Positions 756-51,656 of a DNA stretch of 64,000 bases are shown in pieces. This DNA is from an uncultured virus (IMG/VR IMGVR_UViG_3300005253_000164). Its lineage: Duplodnaviria > Heunggongvirae > Uroviricota > Caudoviricetes. The position numbers were made by a program, and so were the translations under genes. The stretch's first letter is position 1; every line of letters begins with the position of its first letter. The stretch lies in IMG/VR virus record IMGVR_UViG_3300005253_000164; one strand, given 5' to 3'. Under the pieces are notes generated by a model. The model was not told the origin of the DNA. It did no database searches and worked only from the letters and a program-made list of their open reading frames with translations.

Positions 756-930
756 TGAACTACCATGACCTTTAGGACATGGCTTCTTGCTTCAGCAAAA
801 AATCTTACCACTCGCAATCTCATTGGATGAGAATGTGAATAGCAGAGGATTCTTCTCCACAAATAACGAAGAAAGTCCCTTTCTCCGATTCCCATTTAGG
901 GAATAAGCATCAAATAAGACATTTTGTGCA
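755..930 (-). ncRNA. Putative TnpB omega/reRNA overlapping the tnpB 3' end and right end
   Basis: Inferred from the known position of omegaRNA in IS200/605 elements; boundaries not determined. Confidence 0.45.
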
Positions 931-1979
931 GCGTTATAATCTCTGGGGACAAGATGTCCACAGTTACAATTATGTGTTCTGTCTGATAATTTCTTTGGAA
1001 CTATGGTCTTACACACACTGCATTTTGGGGTTGTATTCTTGGGATCCACTTTTACTACTTTACGTCCAGCACTTTCAGCCTTGATGTTAAGCATATTGAA
1101 AAATTCACCCCAAGAGGCATCCAAAATATGTCTGTTCAAAGTTTTAGACCTCTTGGATTGTAACATATTTGTGATGTTAAGATCTTCATGAGCAATGAGA
1201 TCATAATTTCGGATATAATATGTTGACATCTTGTGTAAGAAATCAATTCTCTGATTTTCTAAAGTTTCATAAATAATCCCAAGTTGTTGTTTAACTTTCT
1301 TGCGATTATTAGACCCCTTCTTTTTCCCAGATAATTCTCTTTGTTGTTTCTTTATTTTTGTAAGAGTCTTATCTATATTTCTTGGATATTCAAATTCATT
1401 TTTATCACTATCAGTAACAAATTTTGAAATCCCAACATCCAATCCAACATCTTTCCCAGTAACTGGTAAAGGAGCTACTTGTTTATCTATCTGGACATTG
1501 ACAAACCATTTTCCAGTATTAGTTTTCTTAATTATTATCCCTTTCACCGCTCCATCAATCTTACGATGAATAATGGTGCGAATATTACCAATTTTAGAGA
1601 ATTTAATTCTATTGTTTGATTCATCAATCTTGAAACCAGATTGATTGAAATTTAATGTCTTATACCAACCCTTCCCTTTGAATCGTAATCCACCGATTCG
1701 ATTACTTTTTTTCTTGCTCTCTGAAAGACCTCGAACATTACTCCAAAGAGTATAGTTGACCATCTGAAGAACTTTGGAATATACCTTTTTCAAATAAGGA
1801 TTGGTTTTCTTCCACTCTGGTATGAAATTCTGAGTATCCACCTTGGATAATTTGTTTCCTTTTGAAATTGAAGATAATATTTGATTGTATAAGCGTCTAC
1901 AAGTTTCTAAATTTCCCTCAAGCAATAATATTTGTTGAGGTGTGGGATAAAGTCTAAACTTATAGGTATACACCAACAC
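792..1979 (-). CDS. tnpB: RNA-guided endonuclease TnpB
   Basis: N-terminal YKFRLYPT HTH, RuvC-I GLDVG, RuvC-II HED, CSVC/CNCG Zn ribbon, RuvC-III RDYNAA; catalytic D-E-D intact. Confidence 0.95.
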   Translation of the reverse strand: MLVYTYKFRLYPTPQQILLLEGNLETCRRLYNQILSSISKGNKLSKVDTQNFIPEWKKTNPYLKKVYSKVLQMVNYTLWSNVRGLSESKKKSNRIGGLRFKGKGWYKTLNFNQSGFKIDESNNRIKFSKIGNIRTIIHRKIDGAVKGIIIKKTNTGKWFVNVQIDKQVAPLPVTGKDVGLDVGISKFVTDSDKNEFEYPRNIDKTLTKIKKQQRELSGKKKGSNNRKKVKQQLGIIYETLENQRIDFLHKMSTYYIRNYDLIAHEDLNITNMLQSKRSKTLNRHILDASWGEFFNMLNIKAESAGRKVVKVDPKNTTPKCSVCKTIVPKKLSDRTHNCNCGHLVPRDYNAAQNVLFDAYSLNGNRRKGLSSLFVEKNPLLFTFSSNEIASGKIFC

Positions 1980-4680: not shown

Positions 4681-5121
4681 ATGTTCATACATAATTTGCT
4701 CTGTATGCTTTGTGACTCAATCACCACAAAGAAGAGAGTGCATTGGTGTGAACTGAAATTTCATTATATTCTGTATTATCATTCTCTATTTGTAGGAAAT
4801 CCAGTAAACTCTAAATTATTAGTTAAAATTATTACAGATCTGGATAATCCATATCGAGTTCAGAGGAATAGATATTTTAAATTAAAACCAATACTGGAAG
4901 ATAATGGATACATAGAATGTGAACAAAAGAATTTGAGGGATGGAAGAACAGTTAATTTTACTTTTACAGAAAATGGACTAGAAGAATTACAGGAAATTAT
5001 ACAAAAATATCAAGCTTTTATTAATAAAAATGGACTAGAAAATTTCTTAATGAGTTATAAAGCAGAGATTTATCAATTTGTAAAAAATAAAGTCACCATT
5101 TTTACTAGTGAAAACTCGTAG
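4681..5121 (+). CDS. Winged-helix (MarR/PadR-like) DNA-binding protein
   Basis: LEDNGYIE...DGRTVNFTFTENG wing motif. Confidence 0.6.
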   Translation: MFIHNLLCMLCDSITTKKRVHWCELKFHYILYYHSLFVGNPVNSKLLVKIITDLDNPYRVQRNRYFKLKPILEDNGYIECEQKNLRDGRTVNFTFTENGLEELQEIIQKYQAFINKNGLENFLMSYKAEIYQFVKNKVTIFTSENS

Positions 5122-5487
5122 AATCGCTCTAAAACCCACAAAATCGATACTTTTAATAAGGATGGTGAGTATATATAATATAGGGGGAAGTGGTATGAGT
5201 ATCGCACTCAAGCCACATACCCGCAAATTCGACTGTTTTCTTAGATAAAAAGATGGGAAAACTGTCAAATTGGTTGATTTTATAGTCCAAAACAACCAAA
5301 AAACCGAAACCTTATTAAGTAATAAAACGAATATATAGTATAGGAGAAGCATAACCAATGGCTTCTCTATGATCAGCAAAAACTCATCCATTATAAAAAG
5401 ATCATTTATAATGATACAAAAACACATTTTATAGATTAAACAAAAAACAGTTAATATAAATGTGATAACTTGTCGATGAAATACAAG

Positions 5488-5795
5488 TCTCTCTCACATT
5501 AGGATTGCAAACCACTATCCTATAAAATTCTAAATAGGTTCACCTAACTTTAACTTTTCATGGCCTATTTAGTCTCTCCAATTTAAGAAGCAAAAGACGA
5601 GATAAACAGCTAAGGAGAATGTTCTGAGGTAACATTTGATGATAGAGATTTCCAGACTCGTAAGCTACTGGAAGCAAGTCTACAATCCCTCATCTATCAC
5701 ACGACAGGTTTGAAACACCTGTTATAACCACTCAATCAACTTTGATTGTGTTAGAATGGTAAGGTTCCTATTTTTTTCATTACCTTACCATTTCT
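5488..5795 (+). ncRNA. Hairpin-rich non-coding leader/ncRNA at the head of the CTCTC array
   Basis: No ORF; stems CTAAATAGG/CCTATTTAG, GATAGA/TCTATC, TTCCAG/CTGGAA, ACAGGT/ACCTGT, CAATCAA/TTGATTG, AATGGTAAGGT/ACCTTACCATT; TATA-like TTAATATAAA at 5451-5460. Confidence 0.55.
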
Positions 5796-5865
5796 CTGAA
5801 ATGTCTTAATAAGACAGGAAAACGCTTATTCCCCCAAATGGGATAACAAGCAGGTGACAAAAAAG
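5793..5865 (+). repeat. ~70-bp structured 5' leader, copy 1 (other copies ~6358-6428 and ~8301-8374)
   Basis: CTCT-AAATG-NNN-TAA...ACAGGAAAACGCTTATTCCCCC...TGGGATAACAAGCAGGTGA-(A-rich)-ATG present three times. Confidence 0.9.
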
Positions 5866-6327
5866 ATGTTTGCAAAACGAAAAACAATCCTATTAGAAGT
5901 ATATGACCACAAAATAGCAACGGACTCAACCAACCTTGAAACCGACAAATGGACACACTATTGGAATTTTAAAGTAACAGTTGTTACATTATTCAACAAA
6001 GTGAGAGAAGTTAAAGTCGATTTAACTGAAATAGTAAAAATTCTATTAAAGAAGGAGAATGCAGAAGAGTTTTCAGAATTCTTTGATAATATGTCTCTGG
6101 TAAATCTGGCAATCAAGGAGATGCTTTTGAACAAGAAGCTACCAACTAAAGTTGAGCCAGTTGAAACATACTTCGAACATCCAATTGGAACCCACTGGCA
6201 TAGAATTACAGGAAACCTAAAATTCTTTATTAAGGATTTAGATTTCAAAGAAGAAGAACTTATAGCAATGCCTTCTATAGCATCTATAGCTTCTATAACT
6301 GATTCAGTAGCTCCAGTTGTAGTATAA
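5866..6327 (+). CDS. Hypothetical protein
   Basis: Start moved to ATG 5866; the track's GTG at 5854 is part of the GGTGA SD. Confidence 0.75.
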   Translation: MFAKRKTILLEVYDHKIATDSTNLETDKWTHYWNFKVTVVTLFNKVREVKVDLTEIVKILLKKENAEEFSEFFDNMSLVNLAIKEMLLNKKLPTKVEPVETYFEHPIGTHWHRITGNLKFFIKDLDFKEEELIAMPSIASIASITDSVAPVVV

Positions 6328-6428
6328 TTCACAACAAATGATGCCCGAATGCGAGGCACTCTAAAATGTCCTAAAAAGACAGGAAAACGCTTATTCCCCC
6401 ATGATGGGATAACAAGCAGGTGACAAAA

Positions 6429-6896
6429 ATGAACATCACAGTAACAAAAGACACTATGATTGACGCTTTATATAGCGAAACCGATATGCTTGGTCTAATC
6501 AAGCACAATACTAATAAGAACCCTAAAAATAGCAGGGCAATGAACCATTGTAAATCACATGGATACAGAACTTGTGTCCCAGAATCAAGGGTTTATGCAT
6601 CGTTATTAGTAGTAGTAATCAAAGCAGAAGTTGCATTGAAGAAAGGACTTAGAGAAGTGATTATGCCCCCAATCCACAAGGCTAAAACTCACATCAATCT
6701 AAGGAATTTCAATTTTCCAATGAAGGATAATCACTACAAAAATAGACCAAAACAATTGGGTAAACACTATCAAAGGTATGTAGCAATGCCAAACAAAGAT
6801 AGGGTGAAAAGATTCAATCAAGAACTACGATTCCTTGCTTCTCTTACAAATGAGAACATTGATGAATTTGTAGACGACATTTATATTCTTTACTAG
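6429..6896 (+). CDS. Hypothetical basic protein
   Basis: ATG after GGTGA of leader copy 2. Confidence 0.75.
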   Translation: MNITVTKDTMIDALYSETDMLGLIKHNTNKNPKNSRAMNHCKSHGYRTCVPESRVYASLLVVVIKAEVALKKGLREVIMPPIHKAKTHINLRNFNFPMKDNHYKNRPKQLGKHYQRYVAMPNKDRVKRFNQELRFLASLTNENIDEFVDDIYILY

Positions 6897-6984
6897 AATA
6901 TATTCACCAATTATTGATGCCCGAATGCGAGGCTCTCTATGGTATGAATGAATAACAAATATTCATACTGAGTTGAACAATCAC

Positions 6985-7927: not shown

Positions 7928-8018
7928 ACAATTCGCACACACATAACATGCCCGAATGCGAGGCTCTCTCCTATCTATAAGGCGATTATTCGAAAAAATT
8001 ATAGAAAAGGTGAAATAA

Positions 8019-8261
8019 ATGACCAAAGAAAAAATTAGTGAAAGAGAAACAATTGCAGTTCTTCTGTATTTGATTGATGATTTGAAAAGAAAAATAATAG
8101 AAAAGGAAAAATTCCATCCTTATCAATTACCAACACTCAATTCCATTATTAAATGCACAGAAGAGAGTTATGTATTACCTTTGAAAGAAGAAGAATTTCA
8201 AAAAATTATTATTGATACAAAAAGGCATATATTATATACTCAAAAACAATTGCAGTTATAA
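8019..8261 (+). CDS. Hypothetical protein
   Basis: GGTGA SD upstream. Confidence 0.7.
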   Translation: MTKEKISERETIAVLLYLIDDLKRKIIEKEKFHPYQLPTLNSIIKCTEESYVLPLKEEEFQKIIIDTKRHILYTQKQLQL

Positions 8262-8374
8262 TTTTCATTTAATATCACACAATCAAGCCCGAATGCGAGG
8301 CTCTCTCAAATGTTTTAACAGAAACAGGAAAACGCTTATTCCCCCAAATGGGATAACAAGCAGGTGAAAAAAAA

Positions 8375-8779
8375 ATGATAAACCCAACATTAGCAATACT
8401 CATCCTACTTTGGAACACCTTACCAATGATGGTAAACATAATTTTAGTCTTAAATGGCTATGAAATTAAAAAATGGATTTTTTATTTGGCTCCAATCACT
8501 GCATTATTGTGGTGGTGGGCAATTAAAACAGGTTTAACCGAAGTAGAGTGGAATGAGATGCAAATGATCCGAAAAGCACTTAATGAATTTGATTATGTTT
8601 CTTTAGGATGTCCTTCTAACAACAAAATTTGTGATCCTCAAAAAATTTATAAAACTTATAAAAAAACAGGACAAAAGAAATTTGTTGCTTGGAAAAATAA
8701 TGCGACACTATATTTTTATATTGAAGATAATCGTGTCTGGTCAAGGATAGCAAATGCTCCTCGACTACCAGTTTACTAG
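8375..8779 (+). CDS. Membrane protein (2 N-terminal TM helices)
   Basis: Hydrophobic N-terminus; follows leader copy 3. Confidence 0.7.
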   Translation: MINPTLAILILLWNTLPMMVNIILVLNGYEIKKWIFYLAPITALLWWWAIKTGLTEVEWNEMQMIRKALNEFDYVSLGCPSNNKICDPQKIYKTYKKTGQKKFVAWKNNATLYFYIEDNRVWSRIANAPRLPVY

Positions 8780-8800
8780 TAGTTTCTAGTAATCTCTCCT

Positions 8801-9004
8801 ATGGATGAAAATAAAAATCCTCCAGAACCAAAATGGTTGAAATTCAAACTTCACCCAAAATGGCATATTAGAGAAGCAGGCTATCGTTGTTCACAATGCA
8901 ATGCATATAATGGACCCGATCACGAAGCATTTTCAGTTGATAAACATGATACTGATAGATTAGGCTATATTTGTAGAAAATGCTATGACCTCCTCTCTAA
9001 ATAA
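8801..9004 (+). CDS. Zn-finger microprotein
   Basis: CSQC...CRKC; CTCTCCT-ATG start. Confidence 0.7.
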   Translation: MDENKNPPEPKWLKFKLHPKWHIREAGYRCSQCNAYNGPDHEAFSVDKHDTDRLGYICRKCYDLLSK

Positions 9005-9009
9005 ACTCC

Positions 9010-9535
9010 TCTCTTGTATACACAGCTCAAAATCTACACATGCAGATCTTACATGATCTTGTAGAAAGTAGAGTTGATGTACTGTATACAACTAACGATT
9101 TGGCTTGGGATACTGCCATATAAATATCTTAGGAGGTTAATCCAAAGATAAATATCCCACATTCTACCTTCATATGAATAGAATAAACGAGCAGTTTCAG
9201 CAGTACAAACTGAAATTGCAAGTGATATAATGTAGTATGAAGTGCAAAATATGAACACAACAAAAATTGAGAAAAATTATGGATTATATAATTTCATATA
9301 ATTAACATATGTAATACTAATATATTTGAAATGTTTTTTCTTACGAATAAGGATCAATAGATCCTCTCTCCGCCCCAAACGCATACATTGGCATAAAACA
9401 CTCGCAATGACGTGCCGAACTATTGGAATGGCAGCATAGGGGCTGCGGAACTGTGTAATGACAGTGCTATAATTGTAGATGTCATTACATCAATATTATG
9501 TGGGATACGAGTTTATGAGTCATATCCCACATAAA
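9010..9535 (+). ncRNA. Two CTCTC-initiated, hairpin-rich non-coding units (~9010-9360 and ~9365-9535)
   Basis: Nested stems TTGTATACA/TGTATACAA, CAGCTC/GAGTTG, TCTACA/TGTAGA, AGATC/GATCT; GCAGTTTCAG/CTGAAATTGC; TGTAATGACA/TGTCATTACA; TTATGTGGGATA/TATCCCACATAA; no + strand ORF >=60 aa. Confidence 0.6.
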
Positions 9536-9731
9536 TAAATCTTATGAAGCTCTTAGAAAGACTTCGAGAAATGCGAATTAGTATGCCAGAGACAATTCCA
9601 GTAAAAGTGAGATCACTCCCATTGGATAAGATTTCTGTGGATATTAAAATGATTGGTGAAAAATCTATTCCCCAATCGGATCGCAAAAAAGAGCTTATTC
9701 GGTAATCACACTTATGCCGAAATTCTCTCCT

Positions 9732-10217
9732 GTGTTTGATGATGAAATACAAAAAATAAATGTGGGTTTGTATGATAAACACACCCATTTTGGTATGGAT
9801 GAAATATTTGAGTTTAGAGAACATCTCATATCCCTTCATCCTTATCATCAATCATTTGTTCGAACAATATTCGAAATATATCGATACGAACCATTTACAT
9901 TCATTTCAGCAAATGAATTTGGATTAACCATTGTTTATCCGAAAACAAGGTTTCGTGGTCCACTAAAAAGGATCAATGACAGATTTATTAAAATGGATAT
10001 AGCTCGAACAGATGGCATAGAATTAACTACACAGACTAAGACAGCATCACTTTATGATGTGGTTGAAGCAACAATTGCAACAATTGCATTGTCTTTTAGC
10101 TCCGCAATCCACATCAATATATCTTATGAACAAGATGTAAACGCGATGGTGAATGATGCTATGAAAATAATGGGTTACCCCCAGGATGAGTATTTTAGCA
10201 TTTTTTTCCTCTTATAG
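9732..10217 (+). CDS. Hypothetical protein
   Basis: In-frame GTG follows CTCTCCT (track start 9714). Confidence 0.65.
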   Translation: MFDDEIQKINVGLYDKHTHFGMDEIFEFREHLISLHPYHQSFVRTIFEIYRYEPFTFISANEFGLTIVYPKTRFRGPLKRINDRFIKMDIARTDGIELTTQTKTASLYDVVEATIATIALSFSSAIHINISYEQDVNAMVNDAMKIMGYPQDEYFSIFFLL

Positions 10218-10226
10218 TCTCTCCCC

Positions 10227-12362
10227 ATGTCACAATATGACAATAAGACCTTGACTGATATTAAAGAAGCAATTCTAGCATCACCAAGGTCACCACTACT
10301 TGCATTTATTGGAGTAGACGCAAAAGCGTATTTCCGATCAGTGCAATCTGTTTTTGGGCAAGTTATGCAAGAAGGTGATCTAGATCACATTGCAATGATT
10401 AGCATATCAGCTACCGAAGGCATTGAAACTAATTTCGATGCTGGAGTAGATTACTTGTCTCCAAGAGTACCAGAAGAAACCTATGCAGGAGAATTCAAAG
10501 ATCGCCTCATAGTTTTCTACTCCTACGCATCAGCGAAAGCATACGATGAGTTAAATTCAATCAATCACCTTTACGAAGGGGATATGAGTGAAGATGGATT
10601 AATTACAATAGCAAAAAGACTGAATTTGGGAAACCTTACAGGTCTTGATGCATTGAAACAGATGGCAACCAAACAGAAGAATAATATTGACATAATTCCT
10701 TTCATTAGGTTTTTTGGTTCAAGACTTCCATTTTTCTTCTTTGTCAATGTAAATTCATCACCTAGTATCTTTCCACGAAATGTTACTAATCCTCAAAGCA
10801 ACGATGCACTCATTCGTGCTTATGATTTGTTGGATGATAGTATCAATGCGTTAACGAGTGGGAAATCTTTTGGCGATGTTAAATTCAAAGAGAAATCTTC
10901 AGATGAAGAACTGATTTATGGATACTCAAACCTAGTAGTTTTTGCCCTCGATGATGAGGATATTAACGAAAGGATACTAAGGAAAGAATATGCTTATACA
11001 CATAAGTGTTTTTTCCCAGAACCAGAACAAAGAGAATGGATTATAGCAGGATTGCTGGAAGAGAAACAAGATGAATATCTTGATTCTGAACCAATGATCC
11101 AGTTTAAAATCAAACCAATCCCTAGAGAAGAGTGGAACGGTGGTGAGCAGGAATACCGACAGTTGATAACCTCAATTGGTGGGAATACTGCTGGACTAGA
11201 CTCAATTCAATTAGAACAAGCTGTTCTTAAAGGAATTGAATATCAAGTTCGAGAACAACATCTTTTGGAATTAGAAGAAGATCCTAGCGTGAAAGAGTTT
11301 GAAGTCGAAATCGACATTGAACCATTTAATAAATTTCGCGAAGAGATCCTTAATCAATATGATTTCCTTCAAATCCCAGACACGTCTCATACACTTGATG
11401 ATGTTGCAGGGCATACCCTAAACAAAGAAATAATCAGAACTTACATAATCGAAATGGTTAAACGACCAGATAGAAGAAAGTTCATGAAAAACTTCCTTGC
11501 TTTAGTAGGTGTGCCAGGCACAGGTAAAACATGGCTCGTTGGAGCAGTCGCAAATGAACTGAAAAAATATGGTTATATTTTCTTGGTGTTCTTGCTAAAT
11601 TCCTTGAAAGAAGGAATAGTTGGAGCATCAAACAAAAAAGCCAAATTAGCATTTCAAATTGCAGACTCTTGTGGCTATGCAGTCCTATTCTTTGACGAAG
11701 TTGATATGATTACTTCTGGTCGTGAATCACAAGGCGATTCAGGAGTAAGCAGCGGAATTCAACAACAGTTAATGAAATGGTCTGAAAACAAAGACAAATT
11801 CACAGGAAAACAAATAGTTGCCTCAGCAACAAATCGACCAGATTTAGTTGAGGGGGCTTTTTGGGATCGAATATCTAGAGACGGAGTACTAAACTTCGAA
11901 CCTTTGGATAAATTTGGTATCGGTGAACTTGTTGCCTTAAAACTGAATAAGTTTGAAAAGGATAGTCCAGAATTTACCTACAACAAAATCAATACTTATG
12001 AGGAACTCGGTCAGAAGATCTATGATATAAGACCAGAGTTAATGGGTAGACCATTAGTATCTATGATTGAATGGATTCGAGATACAGCCATTGTTAGAGC
12101 AGATGAAGCCAATACAACAGAACTTACTTTCTCAATAGAGTTAGTAGGAGAAGTTATGGGTGAAACTACTAGCAGAGGAATGTCCGAAGAAGTCGAGAAA
12201 ATGCGAGAAGTATGTGAATCATACGCATTTTTCAAAACAGATGCATCTTTAGAAGCATTACTTGGAACGAAATCAAGAAAAGTAAAGTCTACGAAGAAGA
12301 AATCTACCACCAAGAAGAAGAAATCTCCTACTAAGAAGATTGATTTGAAGAAGATTAAATAA
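10227..12362 (+). CDS. AAA+ ATPase, Ycf46/SpoVK-like architecture
   Basis: Walker A GVPGTGKT, Walker B FFDEVD, sensor ATNRPD; degenerate N-terminal domain; Lys-rich tail. Confidence 0.8.
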   Translation: MSQYDNKTLTDIKEAILASPRSPLLAFIGVDAKAYFRSVQSVFGQVMQEGDLDHIAMISISATEGIETNFDAGVDYLSPRVPEETYAGEFKDRLIVFYSYASAKAYDELNSINHLYEGDMSEDGLITIAKRLNLGNLTGLDALKQMATKQKNNIDIIPFIRFFGSRLPFFFFVNVNSSPSIFPRNVTNPQSNDALIRAYDLLDDSINALTSGKSFGDVKFKEKSSDEELIYGYSNLVVFALDDEDINERILRKEYAYTHKCFFPEPEQREWIIAGLLEEKQDEYLDSEPMIQFKIKPIPREEWNGGEQEYRQLITSIGGNTAGLDSIQLEQAVLKGIEYQVREQHLLELEEDPSVKEFEVEIDIEPFNKFREEILNQYDFLQIPDTSHTLDDVAGHTLNKEIIRTYIIEMVKRPDRRKFMKNFLALVGVPGTGKTWLVGAVANELKKYGYIFLVFLLNSLKEGIVGASNKKAKLAFQIADSCGYAVLFFDEVDMITSGRESQGDSGVSSGIQQQLMKWSENKDKFTGKQIVASATNRPDLVEGAFWDRISRDGVLNFEPLDKFGIGELVALKLNKFEKDSPEFTYNKINTYEELGQKIYDIRPELMGRPLVSMIEWIRDTAIVRADEANTTELTFSIELVGEVMGETTSRGMSEEVEKMREVCESYAFFKTDASLEALLGTKSRKVKSTKKKSTTKKKKSPTKKIDLKKIK

Positions 12363-15789: not shown

Positions 15790-17191
15790 ATGATAATCTA
15801 CGGAATAGAACTTAAGGCAGATCAAGATGATGATATAATTATTTTTATCTCCTCTAAACCTTCTAAAGAAATTATAGAAGGTATAAAAGATGTTATTAAT
15901 GAAAATCACGAAGATGAAAATTGGACTTATGATGGTATAAGGCATTCCATAAGAGAATTCTTAAAAAATCATAATATAAAAATAATTGAAGATCCGTACA
16001 AGCCAATTTCCTTTGATATGGATTCCTTTAATTGATCATTTAATAACATTCTCTCTATGGTCAACGAAATATTTGTCCGAGTTGAAGTGAGTGGTGGAAT
16101 CCATAATGGAGTTTTCTACTCAAGCGACTTAAAAAAAGCAATCGAGATTGATCCACAATACAATCCCGAAAAAGAAGATCAGATAGCAGTTTATGCATTA
16201 GATGTATTTGCTACAGACTTAGCGAAATTTAGTGAAGCAAATAAGATCTGGTCACATCCCGAAGACATGAAAGTTTATAAATCAATCGATGAAGCAAAAT
16301 TTGATGGTTTCAAATGGTCTGATGTACTATATTATCAGAATAAAGCCAGAGAATTTTTATCGATAATTTAAATAATCATGCCGAGTATAATATATATAGG
16401 GAAACTTCTCTCCTATGACAACAAATGTCAAAGAACCAAAAAAATACATGGTATTTTTAATATTGATTTGGATTGCCTTAATCGCTGGAATTGTTCTAGT
16501 GATTTTCGGAATAATTCAAAACAATAGTTGGTGGACAGTCGGAATAATTCTAATTCTTTTATCTGTAAGAAGTCGAAGTCAATTAGAAATATACATGCCA
16601 GTCCATCAATAACACCTCTCCCCTATGCCCAAAGAAAGAAAAAATACGGACATAATAATTCCAGAGTACAAACAATGTACACTGTGCAAACAGGATGAAG
16701 CTCATAAGAATCATGATATTTGTACTAAATGCATAGACTCGGAATACGAAGCAACGATTGGTTTCATGCCATTAGCATGTGGTAGAAAAGGATGCAAAGT
16801 AATATTTGCACCACCAGACGGAGAAATCCCAGATGATGAATACTGGCCCGAATCTTATTGTTCAGCATTGTGTGAACTAAGAGACATTCAAGATGAATAC
16901 ATTATCTTAGATTTCAACCAGATGGCTTTTCTAGTTCTTTATCAATCGTTCATTCATGCAAGGCATCACTATCCATGTGAATTGGATAAATGTAAAATAC
17001 CACTAGAAGGTCTAAAACACTGTACTGTTGAATGCATAAACATTCTTAGAAACAGAAGTACAATGGAACTAAGACCTTTGATTGCAAAAGATCTGAAAAA
17101 AGAATGGAAAAAATGCAATACCAAACCCGCAAGAGATATGACAGGTACTTGGTCATGGTATGATTACATGGATCTGGATAAACTGCATTGA
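15790..17191 (+). CDS. Cassette genes 15790-16035, 16057-16371, 16415-16612 (TM), 16625-17191 (Cys-rich)
   Basis: ORF track plus CTCTC starts; grouped entry. Confidence 0.7.
16368..16412 (+). promoter_or_regulatory. Partial copy of the internal palindrome+TATA promoter cassette
   Basis: TTAAATAATCATGCCGAGTATAATATATATAGGGAAAC-TTCTCTC. Confidence 0.8.
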
Positions 17192-21549: not shown

Positions 21550-21610
21550 TTCTCTCAAAATCGGCAGGTTAAATAATCATGCCGAGTATAATATATATAG
21601 GGATACTCTC
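21547..21610 (+). promoter_or_regulatory. Internal promoter cassette (TCGGCA...TGCCGA palindrome + TATA) flanked by CTCTC on both sides
   Basis: 59 bp identical to 33826-33884; variants at 22690-22745 and 16368-16412. Confidence 0.85.
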
Positions 21611-22155: not shown

Positions 22156-24020
22156 ATGATGAAAATGAAAAAGAAACAATATGAAATTAAATACGAAGAA
22201 ACGCAAGTGATCTATGTTGTGCACTCGTTAAAATTTGAGACTTACAAATATGATAAAATAATTATCACATATCTTGAAGATGAAGATCTACAAGTTACGT
22301 TTATACATATAGATGAAGATCATGGTGAGTATGTATATTATCTCGCCAATATAAAAAATCTTAATGAAACTGATTTAGAAAAAATAGGAGATAATGTTTT
22401 ACTTTACTATAAGTTAACTATAAATAGTCTAGTCTTGTCTAACGAGGAACCACAACCGATCAAAACGATCACGTATTTACAAATGTTTGATGAGGATCTT
22501 CAAAGAATAGAAAAAGAGATCTACATTGAAGACAGTCAATATGAAGACATGCTTGAACTTATCAATATGATGATGCAAGAAGTTGAAGTAATTGATCATC
22601 AAACAAAACAACTAAAATAAAATTTTTATTCTCAATATTTCTGAAAATAATAAGAATAAGTAATACTCTCAATGGTGAAAGAACTCATCAAAATCGGCAG
22701 ATTAAATAATCATGCCGAGTATAATATATATAGGGAAACCCTCTCAATGATAAGAGATGATTATATTTCAAATATTATTTTCAATCAACGAAATAATATT
22801 AAGAAAACACTTATCAAAATAGACGAAACTAAAGTTATCGAGATTAATTTTGTCCAATATTCCCCCCTAAAACATGGAACATGGGAATTTTGGACTTATG
22901 ATGGATATACATACTGTATAAGTAAGTATTATCTAAAACATCACAAATTACATACTAAATCTTCTCCTCTATATTACAGAGATGGAAAAATGCAACATAA
23001 TTGGTCTACTCTCGATGATGAAATATTCTTTTTTAGTGAGAAAAGAAGAAATGACTATATCTATTTAGCATTTAAAGTAGAATCTCCAATAAAAATAAAT
23101 ATAAAAGATCTTTAGTTCTCTCCTATGGTTAAAATATTTAGACTACTAACCATTATTATAAAAGCATTTTCAACAAAGTCTAATGAATATATTAGACCCA
23201 ATATAGATCACATAACGAAAACACCATGTTCTGATTGTAATAATAACAATCCGCGTGTAATGTATCGTATTTGTGATAGATTAACTCCAAAAGGATATAT
23301 TAATCGTGATGGCTCATCCCATGATGGGTGTGATGATTGCAACCCAGATGATTTCTTTACTAAAGAAGCAATCGAATGGAGCAAGAAAAACAAAGTTCCA
23401 TTTCATCTTATTGAATGGGATGTTAGATGCGGCCATTGTTGGAAATTAGGAGGATAACTTCTAATAGCTTTTACTCTCCAGATGTCAGAAGAAAACATCG
23501 ATAAACTAGCAGAAACCATCAAGGCATGTTTCATGGATGCAGAATTCATGGAAGACGTTTGGAAATATTTTTTAAACGAAATTGATGGTTGGGATAAAAC
23601 TGGTGATCACTCTGAAGAAGATCATGAATGCATGTTAAACATGTATGTGAGATTTGATAGAGAGACAGGCAATTACGAAAATACAGAATATCAAAATTCA
23701 GATCAGACCAATCAACCCTTTTCAACAGAAAGTACTGTTGTCGTGGCGATCATGGTATGCCCTGGATTTGATAATTCAAAAGATCAAATGCAAACCGATT
23801 TTATCCAAATGATAGATCAAGTCCTTTACGACTAGTTCTCTCTATGGCAGATGTTGAATATGCCTATATTTGTAATAATAGTGGATGTCCTTCCAGTTTT
23901 ATCCGATTTAAAAACGATGATGGTGGCAAATGCCCCTTTTGTGGTTTTGATATGGTAAAAAACACCGAGGATGTAAAAATGGAAGAAAAAACTAAGATTA
24001 CAATACTGGATGATAAATAA
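22156..24020 (+). CDS. Cassette genes 22156-22620, 22747-23115, 23125-23457 (Cys-rich), 23482-23835, 23844-24020 (58-aa Zn ribbon, not in track)
   Basis: ORF track plus manual translation; grouped entry. Confidence 0.7.
22690..22745 (+). promoter_or_regulatory. Copy of the internal promoter cassette
   Basis: AAAATCGGCAGATTAAATAATCATGCCGAGTATAATATATATAGGGAAACCCTCTC. Confidence 0.85.
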
Positions 24021-31778: not shown

Positions 31779-31799
31779 TGAAAAATTAAATTTCTCTCA

Positions 31800-31868
31800 T
31801 TTACACTTTACACTTTACATTACATTTATTAATGGTAAAGTAAAGGTAAAAGTAAAAGTAAAGGTAAA
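31800..31868. repeat. Inverted arrays of TTTAC (x3-4) and GTAAA (x6) pentamers
   Basis: Read directly, upstream of HTH gene 31875. Confidence 0.85.
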
Positions 31869-31874
31869 GAAAAA

Positions 31875-32297
31875 ATGACATTACCAAATACTAAAGAAGA
31901 ATATGAAATACTATTCGATGAACACAAACAGAAGAAATTAGTGGCAGAAGCATTGAACATATCACGACCAACTCTTGATTCAGAAATCAAAAAAGTGGGA
32001 TTTGATTATGAAACATGGAAACAAAAACACATGAAAAATAATCAAACCACACCAGGTCAAACAAGAACTCGTTCTAGAAAAATAAAAAAATCTCTTCCAA
32101 CTATGGAAATTGCAATGGCAATGGTGAAAAAACGTCTAGAGCGAGAAATGGCTTTTCAAATCAAAGAATTTGGTTACGAGAACGTCAATCATAGAAGAAT
32201 ATATAATCGCCTCTATGGTGAGATTAAACGTGACAGACAAACAGTTGAATTTGCATTCCGTCATTTACTAGACGAATTAAAGCTAGAGGGCTACTAA
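31875..32297 (+). CDS. Fis-type HTH DNA-binding protein
   Basis: KKLVAEALNISRPTLDSEIKK. Confidence 0.7.
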   Translation: MTLPNTKEEYEILFDEHKQKKLVAEALNISRPTLDSEIKKVGFDYETWKQKHMKNNQTTPGQTRTRSRKIKKSLPTMEIAMAMVKKRLEREMAFQIKEFGYENVNHRRIYNRLYGEIKRDRQTVEFAFRHLLDELKLEGY

Positions 32298-33828: not shown

Positions 33829-33890
33829 TTCTCTCAAAATCGGCAGGTTAAATAATCATGCCGAGTATAATATATATAGGGATAACTCTC
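33826..33890 (+). promoter_or_regulatory. Copy of the internal promoter cassette
   Basis: 33826-33884 identical to 21547-21605. Confidence 0.85.
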
Positions 33891-40157: not shown

Positions 40158-40523
40158 ATGTTCCGTAGGAAAAAAGAGAATGAGGCTAAAATAGCATCTG
40201 CAATACTTAATCCTAAAAATTATGTTAAATGCTTAGAAGAACGAGGCACCCTTCATGTTCCAGTAATAATACAGGATAATGAAGATGCAGAATCATTAGG
40301 CATTGAAATCCCAGAGGGAGTAATATTTGCACCTATCTTACGAAGAGGCCAATCAAGTCTCATTAAAAATAAAGAAGGTGAAATAATGGCTCCACCCAGA
40401 GAGAAAATGCAAATTGTTGCAGTATTACATTGCTTAGCTTGTAAAAACATATTAATCTGGGATACTGTGATGGTGGTTCCCAAAAGGTGGTTAAATTCTG
40501 ATGCAAAAACACAAGAAACCTAA
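40158..40523 (+). CDS. Hypothetical protein (first gene after the array)
   Basis: ORF track; upstream AT-rich TATA-like sequence, no CTCTC-ATG. Confidence 0.7.
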   Translation: MFRRKKENEAKIASAILNPKNYVKCLEERGTLHVPVIIQDNEDAESLGIEIPEGVIFAPILRRGQSSLIKNKEGEIMAPPREKMQIVAVLHCLACKNILIWDTVMVVPKRWLNSDAKTQET

Positions 40524-40797
40524 ACTGCCTCTCTCCAAAAAGGTTGCAATAATAATTGCAATCTTAGAGAAAGACACTAAAATCACATATAAAAGCCTTT
40601 TAGCAAAAGGATTAAGTATGAATCAGTGTCAACAAGTTCTTCGAAAATTAGAAAAGACAAATTTTCTTAATAAGAGAATACCTTGGACAGTCAATGAAAA
40701 AGAAACTGACAAAGCTGATAATCGAAGAATTTATTATTTATTAAATCCCAAAACAACAATTGAAAACCTACGCTCTACCTTCCTTCTGGGAGGATAG
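40501..40797 (+). CDS. Winged-helix (MarR-like) protein
   Basis: QQVLRKLEKTNFL...DNRRIYYLL. Confidence 0.55.
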   Translation: MQKHKKPKLPLSKKVAIIIAILEKDTKITYKSLLAKGLSMNQCQQVLRKLEKTNFLNKRIPWTVNEKETDKADNRRIYYLLNPKTTIENLRSTFLLGG

Positions 40798-40813
40798 AGC
40801 TTTTTTTATGCGC
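40772..40813 (+). terminator. Hairpin + T7 tract (terminator-like), ending TTTTTTTATGCGC
   Basis: GCTCTA-CCTTCC..GGGAGG-A-TAGAGC then T-run. Confidence 0.6.
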
Positions 40814-40864
40814 TAAACATAAACAAACCTCTCTCTTTATAATCACCAGATTTATTCTTTGTTT

Positions 40865-41188: not shown

Positions 41189-41190
41189 TA

Positions 41191-41234
41191 ATCTCCCCCC
41201 CTCCTAGAAGGGGAGTGGAGATTTTTTTATGCGC
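41191..41234 (+). terminator. GC-rich hairpin + T7 tract, ending TTTTTTTATGCGC
   Basis: ATCTCC-CCCCCT...AGGGGAG-T-GGAGAT then T-run. Confidence 0.65.
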
Positions 41235-41289
41235 AACAGAAAAGTAATAATGTACGAGATTTTATATGCTGGATCCAGAATATTAACTC

Positions 41290-49088: not shown

Positions 49089-49808
49089 ATGCCTCGATCA
49101 AGTAAACGTATCTCCAATGAGAAGGCAATCGATGTGAAGGGAACGTCACTTAAAACAAAGACTTTACCCAGAAATATACTACCTGTTAAACATCATGCAG
49201 CAGCAGTTGCAACTGAACAGATAGTAATTTCCGATGAACACATTGCAGGGCTTCTTGAAGAGGGATGGACCAAGGAATCAACTTTTGAAACAGAGGTTTT
49301 AGAAGATATTTATCCTGGCTCTACTGATCATCATTTATTGAGTAAACATCTAAAAGCAAGAGGTTTTCGATTAATAAATGATCTACCAATGGAGTTAGAA
49401 GTTGCTATGCTGGATAAACAGAAATTAAAGGATGCAGATTATATATTCGAGTTATCCAGATCTGATGCAAAAGCCACTGTTCTGACGAGAACTGCTGAAA
49501 AATATACCAAAGCCCTACCCAGATACAATCCGAATGATCCCAACAATAATTTCTTTGGAAGAAGTTATGTGGTTGCTGTGATTGATGAATTTGGGAAAGT
49601 ATATGCTATATCTGTCTCACAAAATATACTAAGACAAATCCCAACTACAAAGAGAAAGGGGCGACCACAAACCAACCTTCACACATTCAATAATGCATAC
49701 AAAAAAGAAACTAAGAATGCAAGAAAGGCATATAGTCGCCAAGATACACAAGGCAGATATTCAAAGAATCGAAAAGATTATGTTGATGAGCTGCGAGGTA
49801 AAAAATAA
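49089..49808 (+). CDS. Hypothetical protein with basic N-tail
   Basis: MPRSSKR...RNILPVK; first gene of the coupled 49-54 kb operon. Confidence 0.75.
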   Translation: MPRSSKRISNEKAIDVKGTSLKTKTLPRNILPVKHHAAAVATEQIVISDEHIAGLLEEGWTKESTFETEVLEDIYPGSTDHHLLSKHLKARGFRLINDLPMELEVAMLDKQKLKDADYIFELSRSDAKATVLTRTAEKYTKALPRYNPNDPNNNFFGRSYVVAVIDEFGKVYAISVSQNILRQIPTTKRKGRPQTNLHTFNNAYKKETKNARKAYSRQDTQGRYSKNRKDYVDELRGKK

Positions 49809-50719
49809 TGAAAACTCGTAAACGCATTCTTACTAGTCCAAAAGGTAAGAAAAGAACCATTGATGTGAATTCTGGGACAAAGAAACCAATTAGGAAAAGC
49901 AATTTATTACCCCCACAATACACTATCAATATGACTCAACCAACAGGGAAGAACCGAATTCTTGTAAATCGAGGTGAAGTTCCTTATAGTGACATAATGT
50001 TCCATAAGGACCAAAAGAATTCTTCTTCATTAATAGTGAAAAGAAAATATCGTAAAAAATTCATCTCGGCAGGAATAATTGGAGAACCAGTTGGTCTTGG
50101 AGTTAGGAAAAAAGATAGGCAATTTGATAAGAATCCAACAAATTTTACAGTTAGTCCTTACGATATGATGTATGCCAATGAAATTGGTTTACTTGATCCA
50201 GAAACGATGTCAAGACGACAAGTAACCAGAGAATTAGAAAGATGGGGATTAAGACAGGATCCAGCTTTCTTTAACAAATATTCCTCTTATAAAAAGTTGA
50301 GAGATAATGGTTTCATAGTAATGAGTGGCCTTCAATATGGAGTTGACTTTGTTGCATATGATCTCACACCTACTGAATTTACTTCTAAAGAGATGAAGAA
50401 ACACAGTAAATATATGATTGATATTATGGATGAACCAACTCTTCACATGTCTAACATAATTAAAGGACTGGAAGAAGCTAAAGAAATCAATAAGGAATAT
50501 ATTCTCATGCAAGCAGGAGATACTAAACTATCCAAGAGGTACTTAGATCGCCCAACTGATAAAATTAGGTTCTACGCTATTGATGCAGAAGCACTTCTTG
50601 TGGATAATGAATATGATCTGGATGCTGTAATTATGAGGCGGATAAAGCAATCCAAAACATATCGGACTTTTCCAGTGGAAATTAGGGACACCTATGTGGA
50701 GTTAGATGACGATGAGTGA
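49808..50719 (+). CDS. endA: tRNA-splicing endonuclease-like protein, catalytic type
   Basis: KYSSYKKLRDNGFIVMSGLQYGVDFVAY...HSKYMI...EINKEYIL aligns to the EndA catalytic domain with the Tyr/His/Lys triad. Confidence 0.8.
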   Translation: MKTRKRILTSPKGKKRTIDVNSGTKKPIRKSNLLPPQYTINMTQPTGKNRILVNRGEVPYSDIMFHKDQKNSSSLIVKRKYRKKFISAGIIGEPVGLGVRKKDRQFDKNPTNFTVSPYDMMYANEIGLLDPETMSRRQVTRELERWGLRQDPAFFNKYSSYKKLRDNGFIVMSGLQYGVDFVAYDLTPTEFTSKEMKKHSKYMIDIMDEPTLHMSNIIKGLEEAKEINKEYILMQAGDTKLSKRYLDRPTDKIRFYAIDAEALLVDNEYDLDAVIMRRIKQSKTYRTFPVEIRDTYVELDDDE

Positions 50720-51656
50720 AAAACCAAAAAGAAAACATTATGCTAAAATTAAGAAGCGGATGTCTGCTAGAGGCACTACCGAGGCAATGAATAAACATTC
50801 TGGGAGATCATTTGAATCAAGTGCAATAAAACAAGCAAAGACCACTCAAAATACACGAATATGGAATTCAAGAAAACCAGAATTGATATATGGCCCATAT
50901 TTAGATAATAATTATATTCCACCTGTGATGAGGGAAGAATTAAAATTATTAGGTGTTCATTATCGTGTGGGAAGAGATACTCCCTATACTCCAGTAATTG
51001 CTATGGATCCATACAAAGTTTCAATACAAGAACTACATGACCATGGTATTGTTATTGAAATGAATAGACAAGATCGTCACAAATGGAGAATGTCTGGTTA
51101 TGATTTACTTCACATTCTAGAGAATAAACTAATCCAAGATAGTCCAATAAATGATCGCAGCTATGATGCATTCAGAAATTATATGGAAAGTCAAGATCCA
51201 GATTTCACAGAAAAATATTTTGTCTATAAAGAATTGAAGGAATCTGGTGCAATAGTTATGGATGCCACAATGCATGGTTATGACTTCATTGTGTATGAAG
51301 AACCAAGTGAGGACTTCATAAAAGAATTACAGAAAATTCCTATTGCAAGAATCGGAGCTAAGAAGAATCTTCCAGATAGACGTAAGAGTAGTTTTGCATC
51401 CATAAACGGTGTCGGATTGGTGACAGTAATGACTGCCGATAATGAATACACAGTGAAAGAAGTAATCAAAGCACAACACATTGCACAGAAGAATAAGATC
51501 AAATATCTTATGACTAATGCAGATGGGTATCATGATGAGGATGGGCATTTAGTTGTTCCAATAGAGAATTCGACCAAAGTATATGACACAAGACATATGA
51601 GGAAGAATTTAACTACTGCCAGAGGTAATGAAACAATTATTGGAACTGGTGAATAA
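50706..51656 (+). CDS. tRNA-splicing endonuclease-like protein, probably structural subunit; RxHY N-tail
   Basis: KYFVYKELKESGAIV...GYDFIVYE; catalytic His not evident. Confidence 0.7.
   Translation: MTMSEKPKRKHYAKIKKRMSARGTTEAMNKHSGRSFESSAIKQAKTTQNTRIWNSRKPELIYGPYLDNNYIPPVMREELKLLGVHYRVGRDTPYTPVIAMDPYKVSIQELHDHGIVIEMNRQDRHKWRMSGYDLLHILENKLIQDSPINDRSYDAFRNYMESQDPDFTEKYFVYKELKESGAIVMDATMHGYDFIVYEEPSEDFIKELQKIPIARIGAKKNLPDRRKSSFASINGVGLVTVMTADNEYTVKEVIKAQHIAQKNKIKYLMTNADGYHDEDGHLVVPIENSTKVYDTRHMRKNLTTARGNETIIGTGE

What the first reader, a model, noticed from the sequence alone, without database searches (positions are those of the whole stretch)
9010..9535. Structured ncRNA cassettes embedded in the array
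Seen: ~530 nt without a + strand ORF in an otherwise fully packed array. It splits into two units, each starting right after a CTCTC. Unit 1 opens with an ~80-nt interrupted hairpin followed by several more. Unit 2 has a multibranch fold (CCGC/CCCC pairing with GGGG/GCGG, enclosing CATTG/CAATG and TGCC/GGCA) and two long stems of 10 and 12 bp. Inference: novel viral sRNAs (decoys, anti-defence or guide RNAs).
Basis: partly seen in the sequence, partly recalled or inferred. Interest (0 to 1): 0.72.

Follow-up and report, generated by a model that had tools for sequence, protein, structure and literature searches.

The report
Hairpin-rich non-coding spacer in gene array
A 539-base gene-free stretch inside a packed array of small genes on an uncultivated archaeal virus or plasmid carries a chain of hairpins, several kept in its one known relative; it most likely acts as structured RNA within a long transcript, but its function is untested.

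Summary
The gap is real: window 9005-9543 has no + strand ORF, and no ORF on either strand is kept in the one relative (L003, about 90% alike). It starts at CTCTC (9009) and is split by CTCTCTCC (9364). L003 carries an extra 87-nt module bounded by the same hairpin-plus-TCTCTC joint, so the modular reading holds.

The hairpins are real. The whole gap folds at z -6.3 (+) and -5.7 (-). The two long stems at 9453-9534 form the most stable 100-nt window of 2557 on both strands. Shared-structure scores for h1, h2 and hairpin B exceed all 26 coding controls, and the signal is stronger on the + strand.

The claimed multibranch fold fails: z is +0.1 and its CATTG/CAATG stem is broken in L003.

There is no Rfam, tRNA, terminator, repeat, splicing-motif or paralog match, and no RNA data.

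The context is an archaeal mobile element: GGTGA ribosome sites, TATA boxes about 30 nt before some ATGs, and 69 genes preceded by CTCTC 0-5 nt before the start.

Best reading (0.4): transcribed intercistronic RNA. Unit 2 is a structured leader of the 53-codon gene at 9544; unit 1 is a gene-less module. Free-standing sRNAs, DNA-level palindromes and junk remain open.

The parts
8985..9013 (+). Left joint. The 14-nt word ending in CTCCTCTCT occurs twice (8985-8998 and 9001-9014), across the stop codon of the 67-aa zinc-ribbon gene (8801-9004). CTCTC at 9009-9013 opens unit 1.
   Evidence: family D3
9014..9091 (+). Hairpin h1, a 78-nt interrupted stem-loop. It begins with TTG in the window (a 16-codon ORF) and with ATG in L003 (a 5-codon ORF); the ORF is not kept.
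   Evidence: z -3.66 in the window, -1.43 in L003; shared-structure z -5.8 (+) against -0.75 (-); 66% identity; 3 pairs changed on both sides and kept.
9106..9160 (+). Hairpin h2; the inner stem-loop 9125-9150 is the part kept in L003.
   Evidence: z -0.71 alone; shared-structure z -6.6 (+) and -3.95 (-).
9168..9243 (+). Hairpin h3, a long hairpin with an 8-pair outer stem and a 10-pair inner stem.
   Evidence: z -3.47 in the window, -2.53 in L003; outer-stem U-A becomes C-G and inner G.U becomes C-G, both kept; z -4.4 (+) and -2.6 (-).
9283..9350 (+). AT-rich block, the best-kept part of unit 1 (63 of 68 identical). It holds AT palindromes and a T6 run at 9334-9339.
   Evidence: Its conservation is not above the local neutral level. 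Structure is not significant (z -2.1 and -1.8).
9350..9371 (+). Module joint: a 6-pair hairpin AGGATC-AATA-GATCCT followed by CTCTCTCC. L003 has this joint twice, with 87 extra nt between the copies.
   Evidence: one match in 64 kb, none in 100 shuffles.
9372..9450 (+). Core of unit 2, richer in G+C. It is 89% identical overall; differences cluster in one loop (9395-9410), inside the kept stem TTGGCAT/GTGCCGA.
   Evidence: z +0.11; z -1.0 and -0.4.
9453..9490 (+). Hairpin A: 11 pairs and a 16-nt loop, 93% identical in L003.
   Evidence: z -3.3 and -3.55, which is within the range of the coding controls.
9496..9534 (+). Hairpin B: 12 pairs, ending 9 nt before the ATG at 9544. In L003 the stem is kept but the loop fits better as its reverse complement.
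   Evidence: z -10.2 (+) and -6.45 (-); 29 of 35 identical as reverse complement against 26 of 36 direct.
9544..9705 (+). A 53-codon gene directly after the gap. It has no CTCTC, no GGTGA and no kept TATA box in front. It is kept without indels in L003, with 10 mostly conservative residue changes.

Best explanation
The gap is a non-coding stretch between genes, inside a long + strand transcription unit of an archaeal mobile element (virus or plasmid), and it works at the RNA level in cis.

The array is built of modules that each begin at a CTCTC word. In 69 modules the ATG follows within 0-5 nt. In several others a hairpin-bearing leader lies between CTCTC and the ATG.

Unit 2 (9364-9543) is such a leader, the longest one. 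After CTCTCTCC come a G+C-richer core and two very stable tandem hairpins, the second ending 9 nt before the AUG of the 53-codon gene at 9544. That gene has no start signal of its own. The hairpins most likely fix or protect the 5' end of the downstream message, or set how the ribosome reaches this AUG.

Unit 1 (9009-9363) is a module without a gene. Its RNA is a chain of hairpins that has drifted fast in sequence while keeping several stems.

Shown: there is no conserved ORF, the hairpins exist, several are kept, and the make-up is modular. Inferred: that the gap is transcribed, which strand is transcribed, that any RNA processing occurs, and the effect on translation.
For: Non-coding. No ORF is kept between the window and L003. 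tblastx of the gap against the rest of the window and L003 gives only short hits, best E 0.019.

Structure. The stretch 9451-9550 ranks 1 of 2557 windows. Shared-structure z (RNAalifold against column shuffles) is -8.3 on + for unit 1 (0 of 200 shuffles as good), -5.8 for h1, -6.6 for h2 and -10.2 for hairpin B. Coding controls treated the same way give -3.52 to +0.63 on + for 13 blocks of 274 nt, and a mean of -1.35 with a minimum of -4.01 for 26 blocks of 90 columns.

Strand. The shared-structure signal is weaker on the - strand: unit 1 -3.5, h1 -0.75.

Kept pairs. Six of the 7 pairs that changed on both sides outside the misaligned hairpin B are still pairs. The one change in the closing stem of unit 2 is G-C to G.U.

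Leader precedent in the same array. CTCTC followed by a hairpin leader and then the ATG occurs at 5793-5866, 6340-6431 and 8287-8374 and at 31794-31875.

Position in the transcription unit. The nearest promoter-like repeats lie at about 5165 and 16368, which puts the gap inside one + strand unit. The element's terminator-like sites (a G+C hairpin plus T7 at 40780-40810 and 41190-41230) look unlike hairpins A and B, which have no T run.
Against: There is no RNA evidence at all.

Only two sequences exist, so covariation has little power. Among single transitions at paired sites of the window's fold, 9 give G.T and 7 give A.C (read), so that count shows no strand preference.

In L003, unit 1 folds only marginally better than shuffles: z -1.96 on +, -1.34 on -.

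The core of unit 2 shows neither significant folding nor conservation above the local neutral level. Fourfold sites of the two neighbouring genes are 65 of 70 identical.

Hairpin A's shared-structure score lies within the control range.

Single-sequence folding is nearly as good on the - strand, as expected for DNA palindromes. The apparent loop inversion in hairpin B is a DNA-level event. No mechanism is known for a CTCTC start signal.
Confidence: 0.4

Rival explanations
1. Free-standing, trans-acting small RNAs. The CUCUC words would be cleavage sites that cut the polycistronic RNA into pieces. Units 1 and 2 (and the extra unit of L003) would then be released as structured sRNAs that act on host or rival nucleic acids or proteins.
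For: The units begin exactly at CTCTC, and a whole extra unit is present or absent between the two genomes. Structure is kept while sequence drifts faster than fourfold sites: unit 1 is 66-79% identical against 88%. The loop 9395-9410 changes far more than its stem.
Against: No transcript data exist. No 3' end signal was found between unit 2 and the ATG at 9544. There is no Rfam family, no repeat or spacer-like unit and no paralog in 64 kb plus 22 kb. The hairpin B loop appears inverted in L003, which would turn a guide into its complement. The fast drift of unit 1 may simply be mosaic recombination, since its left neighbour differs in L003.
Confidence: 0.2
2. DNA-level elements. The inverted repeats would be protein-binding sites (for example operators in front of the small gene at 9544), recombination joints for module exchange, or part of a replication origin with the AT-rich block as the unwinding region.
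For: Folding is almost as good on the - strand. Hairpins A and B lie directly upstream of a small gene. Modules are reshuffled between the window and L003, with repeated joints. The AT-rich block 9283-9350 is full of AT palindromes. The hairpin B loop seems to have flipped between its arms.
Against: Shared-structure scores are clearly lower on the - strand for unit 1 (-3.5 against -8.3) and for h1 (-0.75 against -5.8), because several kept pairs are G.U. There are no iterons or direct repeats beyond chance. Cumulative GC skew has no turning point here. The arm spacing of 15-16 nt is unusual for operators (established knowledge, not tested). The AAA protein downstream matches the classic AAA family PF00004, not an initiator family.
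Confidence: 0.2
3. Non-functional remnant. One or two gene modules would have lost their coding sequence, and the hairpins would be quasi-palindromes kept or perfected by mutational processes (template switching, small inversions) rather than by selection.
For: In L003, unit 1 starts like a normal gene (joint, CTCTCTC, ATG) but stops after 5 codons. Unit 1 is the most diverged stretch of the neighbourhood and carries indels. Neither the AT block nor the core of unit 2 is conserved above the local neutral level. Unit 1 of L003 folds barely better than shuffles.
Against: No trace of protein likeness is left. Shared-structure scores exceed all 13 and 26 coding controls. In a genome packed this tightly, with about 10 nt between most genes, 539 useless bases kept in both lineages would be odd.
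Confidence: 0.2

Closest known systems
Structured 5' leaders and intercistronic hairpins that set mRNA stability or start-site access in phage and archaeal operons (general class; recalled, no single family)
   Same: Stable hairpins lie directly upstream of a start codon inside a polycistronic unit. The same array has shorter leaders of this kind.
   Different: At about 170 nt it is much longer than its sister leaders. It has no Shine-Dalgarno site after it, belongs to no described family, and any effect on expression is untested.
Phage T4 RegB system: a sequence-specific endoribonuclease that cuts early mRNAs at GGAG in intergenic start regions (recalled from the literature, not read here)
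   Same: A short fixed word sits at nearly every early-gene junction and could be read by one factor acting on RNA.
   Different: The word is CUCUC, not GGAG. No nuclease is linked to it and cleavage is not shown. A weak Atlas lead from the neighbouring 161-aa protein to the T4 RegA family was not borne out.
Integron attC sites
   Same: An array of small, same-strand, mostly orphan gene modules whose order differs between relatives. The elements at the joints are kept in structure but variable in sequence.
   Different: Most joints here are only about 10 nt (stop, CTCTC, ATG) with no hairpin. No integrase family was seen in the window. The kept pairs include G.U on the coding strand.
RNA anti-CRISPRs (solitary repeat units) and virus-borne mini-CRISPR arrays (recalled)
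   Same: Small structured non-coding units carried by a mobile element.
   Different: There is no repeat-spacer pattern. The stems, 10-12 pairs with 15-16-nt loops, are longer than typical repeat hairpins. The host's repeats are unknown, so mimicry could not be tested.

Membership tests
Any Rfam 15 family | Score at or above the family's gathering threshold | tested here: not met
   0 matches in the whole window at gathering thresholds. In the gap the best match is SNORD62 on the - strand, 15.8 bits against a threshold of 39, E 5.4. In L003 the best is 22.1 bits against 56.
tRNA / tmRNA | Cloverleaf found by ARAGORN | tested here: not met
   0 genes in 64 kb.
Intrinsic (hairpin plus T-run) terminator | G+C-rich stem followed at once by a T run | tested here: not met
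   No site in 9005-9543 on either strand. Hairpin B is followed by AAATAAATCTT. The element's own terminator-like sites at about 40.8 and 41.2 kb do carry T7.
Archaeal bulge-helix-bulge splice or processing motif (the window encodes two proteins with a tRNA-intron-endonuclease domain) | Helix, 3-nt bulge, 4-pair helix, 3-nt bulge, helix | tested here: not met
   2 candidates in 8950-9620, against 1 to 6 in 20 shuffles. The scan was strict: 3+4+3 pairs with at most one G.U.
MITE or other dispersed repeat | Several copies with terminal inverted repeats | tested here: not met
   No second copy of any part of the gap, or of L003's extra unit, in the window or L003. The best chance hits are 13-14 nt. 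Only 64 kb plus 22 kb could be searched.
Protein-coding gene (hidden or decayed) | ORF kept in relatives, third-position drift, protein likeness | tested here: not met
   Frames are broken by indels of 1, 2, 4 and 9 nt. A 31/35-aa - strand ORF over 9277-9384 is open in both, but its start codons are not homologous and the changes under it appear to alter residues. tblastx gives nothing.
CRISPR array or solitary repeat unit | Direct repeats of 24-40 nt at regular spacing, or a match to a host repeat | tested here: inconclusive
   No direct or tandem repeats. A match to host repeats cannot be tested because the host is unknown.
Replication origin | AT-rich unwinding block with repeated initiator boxes, a skew turning point and an adjacent initiator gene | tested here: inconclusive
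   An AT-rich block is present. There are no repeated boxes beyond chance, no skew turn and no recognisable initiator gene.

The most novel reading that the evidence does not exclude
CUCUC is an RNA processing or re-initiation signal special to this element. It would cut or partition a long early transcript at every module boundary, giving near-leaderless mRNAs for about 70 small genes and, where a module has no gene, releasing free structured RNAs (unit 1, unit 2, and the extra unit of L003). The gap would then be the first sight of gene-less RNA modules in a new kind of archaeal expression array.
Probability: 0.15. Interest if true: 0.75.

Novelty: new member of a known kind. Interest (0 to 1): 0.4.

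Why it matters
By itself the gap is a modest find: an unclassified structured non-coding stretch, seen in two metagenomic sequences and without expression data.

Its value lies in what it shows about the array around it. An uncultivated archaeal element expresses some 70 orphan genes behind a pyrimidine word, CTCTC, instead of a Shine-Dalgarno site or a promoter. The same word also heads modules that hold only folded RNA.

If that word proves to be a processing or initiation signal, it would be a new way of organising gene expression in archaea, and these non-coding modules would be its natural test substrates.

Tried and rejected
**Searches for relatives**
- Protein-guided scans of viral contigs and genome contigs with the 711-aa ATPase found none.
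- The 161-aa protein gave one IMG/VR locus, L001. It is unrelated: 54% G+C and no CTCTC-ATG pattern.
- Exact-pattern scans with a 34-nt word of unit 2 and a 28-nt word of the promoter-like repeat gave 0 hits in viral contigs and genome contigs.
- INPHARED phages, blastn of 8000-11000: no match.
- The metagenome scan gave only the window's own contig (L002) and L003.
- The 711-aa and 161-aa proteins each have only one close relative among 5.8 billion proteins. A cluster look-up gave no names.

**Expression**
- No RNA holder is listed among the 4 runs.
- Laying the 4 DNA runs showed only the two known variants.

**Whole genome**
- No whole genome is held, and the records behind L002 and L003 are not held.

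**Motifs and leads**
- Bulge-helix-bulge scan: no excess.
- TATCCCACAT has 3 exact copies in the gap, but 7 matches at up to 1 mismatch in the window is near chance (31 of 100 shuffles reach 7), and the first copy is not kept in L003.
- T6 at 9334 as an archaeal terminator: T runs are no rarer than base composition predicts and occur inside genes, so this is unsupported.
- RegA-like translational repressor lead for the 161-aa neighbour: Atlas score 0.79, below the useful level. The AlphaFold model was unusable, pLDDT 35. There is no Pfam hit even at E 10. Dropped.
- The 53-aa protein: no Atlas hit.
- The - strand ORF of 31/35 aa and the + strand ORF of 33/40 aa across hairpin A are not credibly conserved.

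**Failed or partial runs**
- A full z-score scan with shuffles timed out and was replaced by the G+C-regressed scan.
- The long-block control run timed out after 13 blocks.

**Earlier scan notes**
- Nothing on this genome and nothing related.

**Literature**
- Four full-text searches (listings and abstracts only, no paper opened) found no paper naming the contig, a CTCTC start motif in archaeal viruses, or comparable non-coding modules.

Full report
**What the window is**

The 64-kb window has 32% G+C, and nearly all long ORFs lie on the + strand. It is 100% identical to part of a 145-kb metagenome contig (L002). It has one relative, L003, on a 68-kb contig. The protein database knows the 711-aa ATPase of the window only from these two lineages.

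Few proteins match a family:
- two AAA ATPases whose nearest named relatives are archaeal CDC48-type proteins;
- two neighbouring proteins with a tRNA-intron-endonuclease domain;
- two PAPS-reductase-like proteins;
- a TnpB transposase, a GP88-family protein and a PrsW protease.

No capsid, portal or terminase family was seen, so 'virus' is not shown.

The start signals point to an archaeal host. Several genes carry GGTGA 6-9 nt before the ATG. A set of genes at 45-57 kb carries TTTATATA-like boxes that begin about 30 nt before the ATG, the geometry of archaeal promoters of leaderless mRNAs (this rule is established knowledge).

**The array**

Between 7.2 and 40 kb, 69 ORFs are preceded by CTCTC with 0-5 nt to the start codon (68 ATG, 1 GTG). 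The upstream stop codon usually sits directly before the word. The profile shows information only at -8 to -1 and none near -26. The word occurs about 127 times on the + strand and about 45 times on the - strand.

CTCTC is not always next to the ATG. At 5793-5866, 6340-6431 and 8287-8374 it is followed by a repeated 65-90-nt leader with hairpins and a GGTGA site. At 31794-31875 it is followed by a long hairpin made of CTTTAC and GTAAAG repeats. At 21552 and 33831 it is followed by a 45-nt promoter-like repeat, which occurs four times and ends in TATATATAGGGA. A similar word lies at about 5165.

So CTCTC marks the head of a module, not only a ribosome site.

**The observation**

The stretch 9005-9543 has no + strand ORF of 45 aa or more and is the largest such gap between 5.9 and 63 kb. 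It begins at CTCTC (9009) and is divided by CTCTCTCC (9364).

It folds far better than shuffles: z -6.27 on +, -5.74 on -, and no shuffle of 100 as good on either strand. Piece by piece:

| Piece | z in the window |
|---|---|
| h1, 9014-9091 | -3.66 |
| 9100-9180 | -0.71 |
| h3, 9168-9243 | -3.47 |
| AT-rich part | -2.13 |
| Core of unit 2, 9364-9450 | +0.11 |
| Two long stems, 9453-9534 | -5.95 |

After regression on G+C, 9451-9550 is the most stable of 2557 100-nt windows on both strands.

The multibranch fold is not supported.

**Comparison with L003**

The alignment shows the same gap upstream of the same genes, but with a different left neighbour. It also shows an extra 87-nt module between units 1 and 2. 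That module is bounded on both sides by a short GATC-type hairpin followed by TCTCTC.

Identity by block:

| Block | Identity |
|---|---|
| h1 | 66% |
| Linker | 37% |
| 9126-9282 | 74-79% |
| AT-rich block | 93% |
| Core of unit 2 | 89% |
| Hairpin A | 93% |
| Hairpin B | 50% |
| 53-codon gene | 90% |

Fourfold-degenerate sites of four flanking genes are 305 of 348 identical (88%). For the two nearest genes the figure is 65 of 70. Most of unit 1 is thus more diverged than neutral sites nearby. Together with the changed left neighbour, this fits mosaic exchange of modules. The AT block and the core of unit 2 are not conserved above the local neutral level.

Indels of 1, 2, 4 and 9 nt exclude a kept reading frame.

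**Is structure kept?**

RNAalifold consensus energies were compared with column shuffles of the same alignment:

| Region | z on + | z on - |
|---|---|---|
| Unit 1 | -8.3 | -3.5 |
| h1 | -5.8 | -0.75 |
| h2 | -6.6 | -3.95 |
| h3 | -4.4 | -2.6 |
| Hairpin A | -3.3 | -3.55 |
| Hairpin B | -10.2 | -6.45 |
| AT block | -2.1 | -1.8 |
| Core of unit 2 | -1.0 | -0.4 |

This method is biased towards negative values, so I ran coding controls from the same pair of genomes. Thirteen blocks of 274 nt gave -3.52 to +0.63 on + and -4.43 to +1.11 on - (stopped by the time limit). Twenty-six blocks of 90 columns gave a mean of -1.35 and a minimum of -4.01 on +, and a mean of -0.97 and a minimum of -4.88 on -.

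Unit 1 as a whole, h1, h2 and hairpin B exceed every control. h3 exceeds them narrowly. Hairpin A, the AT block and the core do not.

On the window's own minimum-energy pairs, 101 are unchanged in L003, 14 changed on one side and still pair, 6 changed on both sides and still pair, 28 are broken and 5 fall in gaps. Twelve of the broken rows belong to hairpin B, which MAFFT misaligned.

**Evidence against**

- In L003, unit 1 on its own folds at only z -1.96 on + and -1.34 on -.
- Single transitions at paired sites give G.T 9 times and A.C 7 times (read), so that count shows no strand preference.
- With two sequences no covariation test has real power.

**Hairpin B**

Its stem is kept in L003. 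The segment between the outer arms aligns better as a reverse complement (29 of 35 identical, including an 11-nt exact run) than directly (26 of 36). A small inversion between the arms is the likely cause. The loop sequence is then not constrained in orientation, which argues against a guide or decoy sequence there.

**What it is not**

- Not an Rfam family.
- Not a tRNA.
- Not a hairpin-plus-T terminator. The element's own terminator-like sites at 40.8 and 41.2 kb do have T7.
- Not a tandem or direct repeat.
- Not a dispersed repeat.
- Not a decayed paralog.
- No enrichment of bulge-helix-bulge motifs.

**How it most likely works**

The gap lies between promoter-like repeats at about 5165 and 16368. 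All flanking genes are on the + strand, so it is probably transcribed as part of one long RNA (inference).

The gene at 9544 is real by its indel-free, conservatively changing ORF. Yet it has no CTCTC, no GGTGA and no kept TATA box in front of it. Its nearest CTCTC is 172 nt upstream, and the space between is unit 2. Since four other modules place a hairpin leader between CTCTC and the ATG, I read unit 2 as the longest leader of this class. Hairpins A and B would protect or define the 5' side of the downstream message, or control access to the AUG.

Unit 1 is a module that has no gene. Whether its RNA does anything is open.

I give this cis-acting RNA reading 0.4. Free sRNAs, DNA-level palindromes and non-functional remnants get about 0.2 each.

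**Novelty and interest**

The gap belongs to no described family, but structured leaders and intergenic RNAs are a known kind. The more unusual matter is the CTCTC word at about 70 gene heads in an archaeal element. I found nothing on it in four full-text searches (listings and abstracts only, no paper opened). I score the finding itself at 0.4.

Noticed in passing
window 7200-40100 (+ strand): 69 ORFs (68 ATG, 1 GTG) are preceded by (T)CTCTC(C) only 0-5 nt before the start, usually right after the upstream stop codon. There is no Shine-Dalgarno site and no TATA box at about -26. The word occurs about 127 times on + and about 45 times on -. Genes elsewhere in the window use GGTGA or TATA-box leaderless starts. 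This may be a new initiation, re-initiation or RNA-processing signal in an archaeal element, and it deserves its own follow-up.
   Followed up: partly
window 5119-5866: A second gene-free, strongly folding stretch of 748 nt (z -5.0 on +, -3.9 on -). It has a promoter-like word GAGTATATATAATATAGGGGGA near 5165 and CTCTC words at 5489 and 5574. It ends in the repeated hairpin-plus-GGTGA leader of the gene at 5866. There is no Rfam match.
   Followed up: partly
window 16368-16412, 21560-21605, 22690-22744, 33840-33885: A 45-nt repeat occurs four times. It has a 6-pair hairpin (TCGGCA...TGCCGA) around TTAAATAA, then GTATAATATATATAGGGA, then CTCTC and the ATG within about 15 nt. It looks like the element's own early promoter, with a start near AGGGA.
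   Followed up: partly
window 5793-5866, 6340-6431, 8287-8374; joints at 6933, 7526, 7964, 8301: Module joints share the word GCCCGAATGCGAGGC directly before TCTCTC. Three genes share a 65-90-nt leader with two hairpins and GGTGA. The order of these modules differs between the window and L003.
   Followed up: partly
window 31794-31875: Between CTCTC and the ATG at 31875 lies a leader made of CTTTAC-type repeats facing GTAAAG-type repeats. These can form one long hairpin.
   Followed up: no
window 40780-40815 and 41190-41235: Two terminator-like sites at the end of the small-gene array: a G+C-rich stem, then T7, then the shared word ATGCGC. The - strand at 40476-40625 is also among the most stable windows.
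   Followed up: no
window 49808-51656: Two adjacent paralogous proteins (303 and 316 aa) carry a tRNA-intron-endonuclease catalytic domain (E 3.7e-15 and 1e-6). This is unusual cargo for a mobile element. No bulge-helix-bulge motif was found in the gap studied.
   Followed up: partly
window 792-1979 (- strand): A TnpB (IS605 OrfB) gene is the only long - strand ORF in the window. It lies at the point where gene direction switches.
   Followed up: no
L003 9044-9130: An extra 87-nt non-coding module is absent from the window. It has three small hairpins and is flanked by a duplicated hairpin-plus-TCTCTC joint. It arose either by insertion with duplication of the joint or by deletion between the repeats.
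   Followed up: partly
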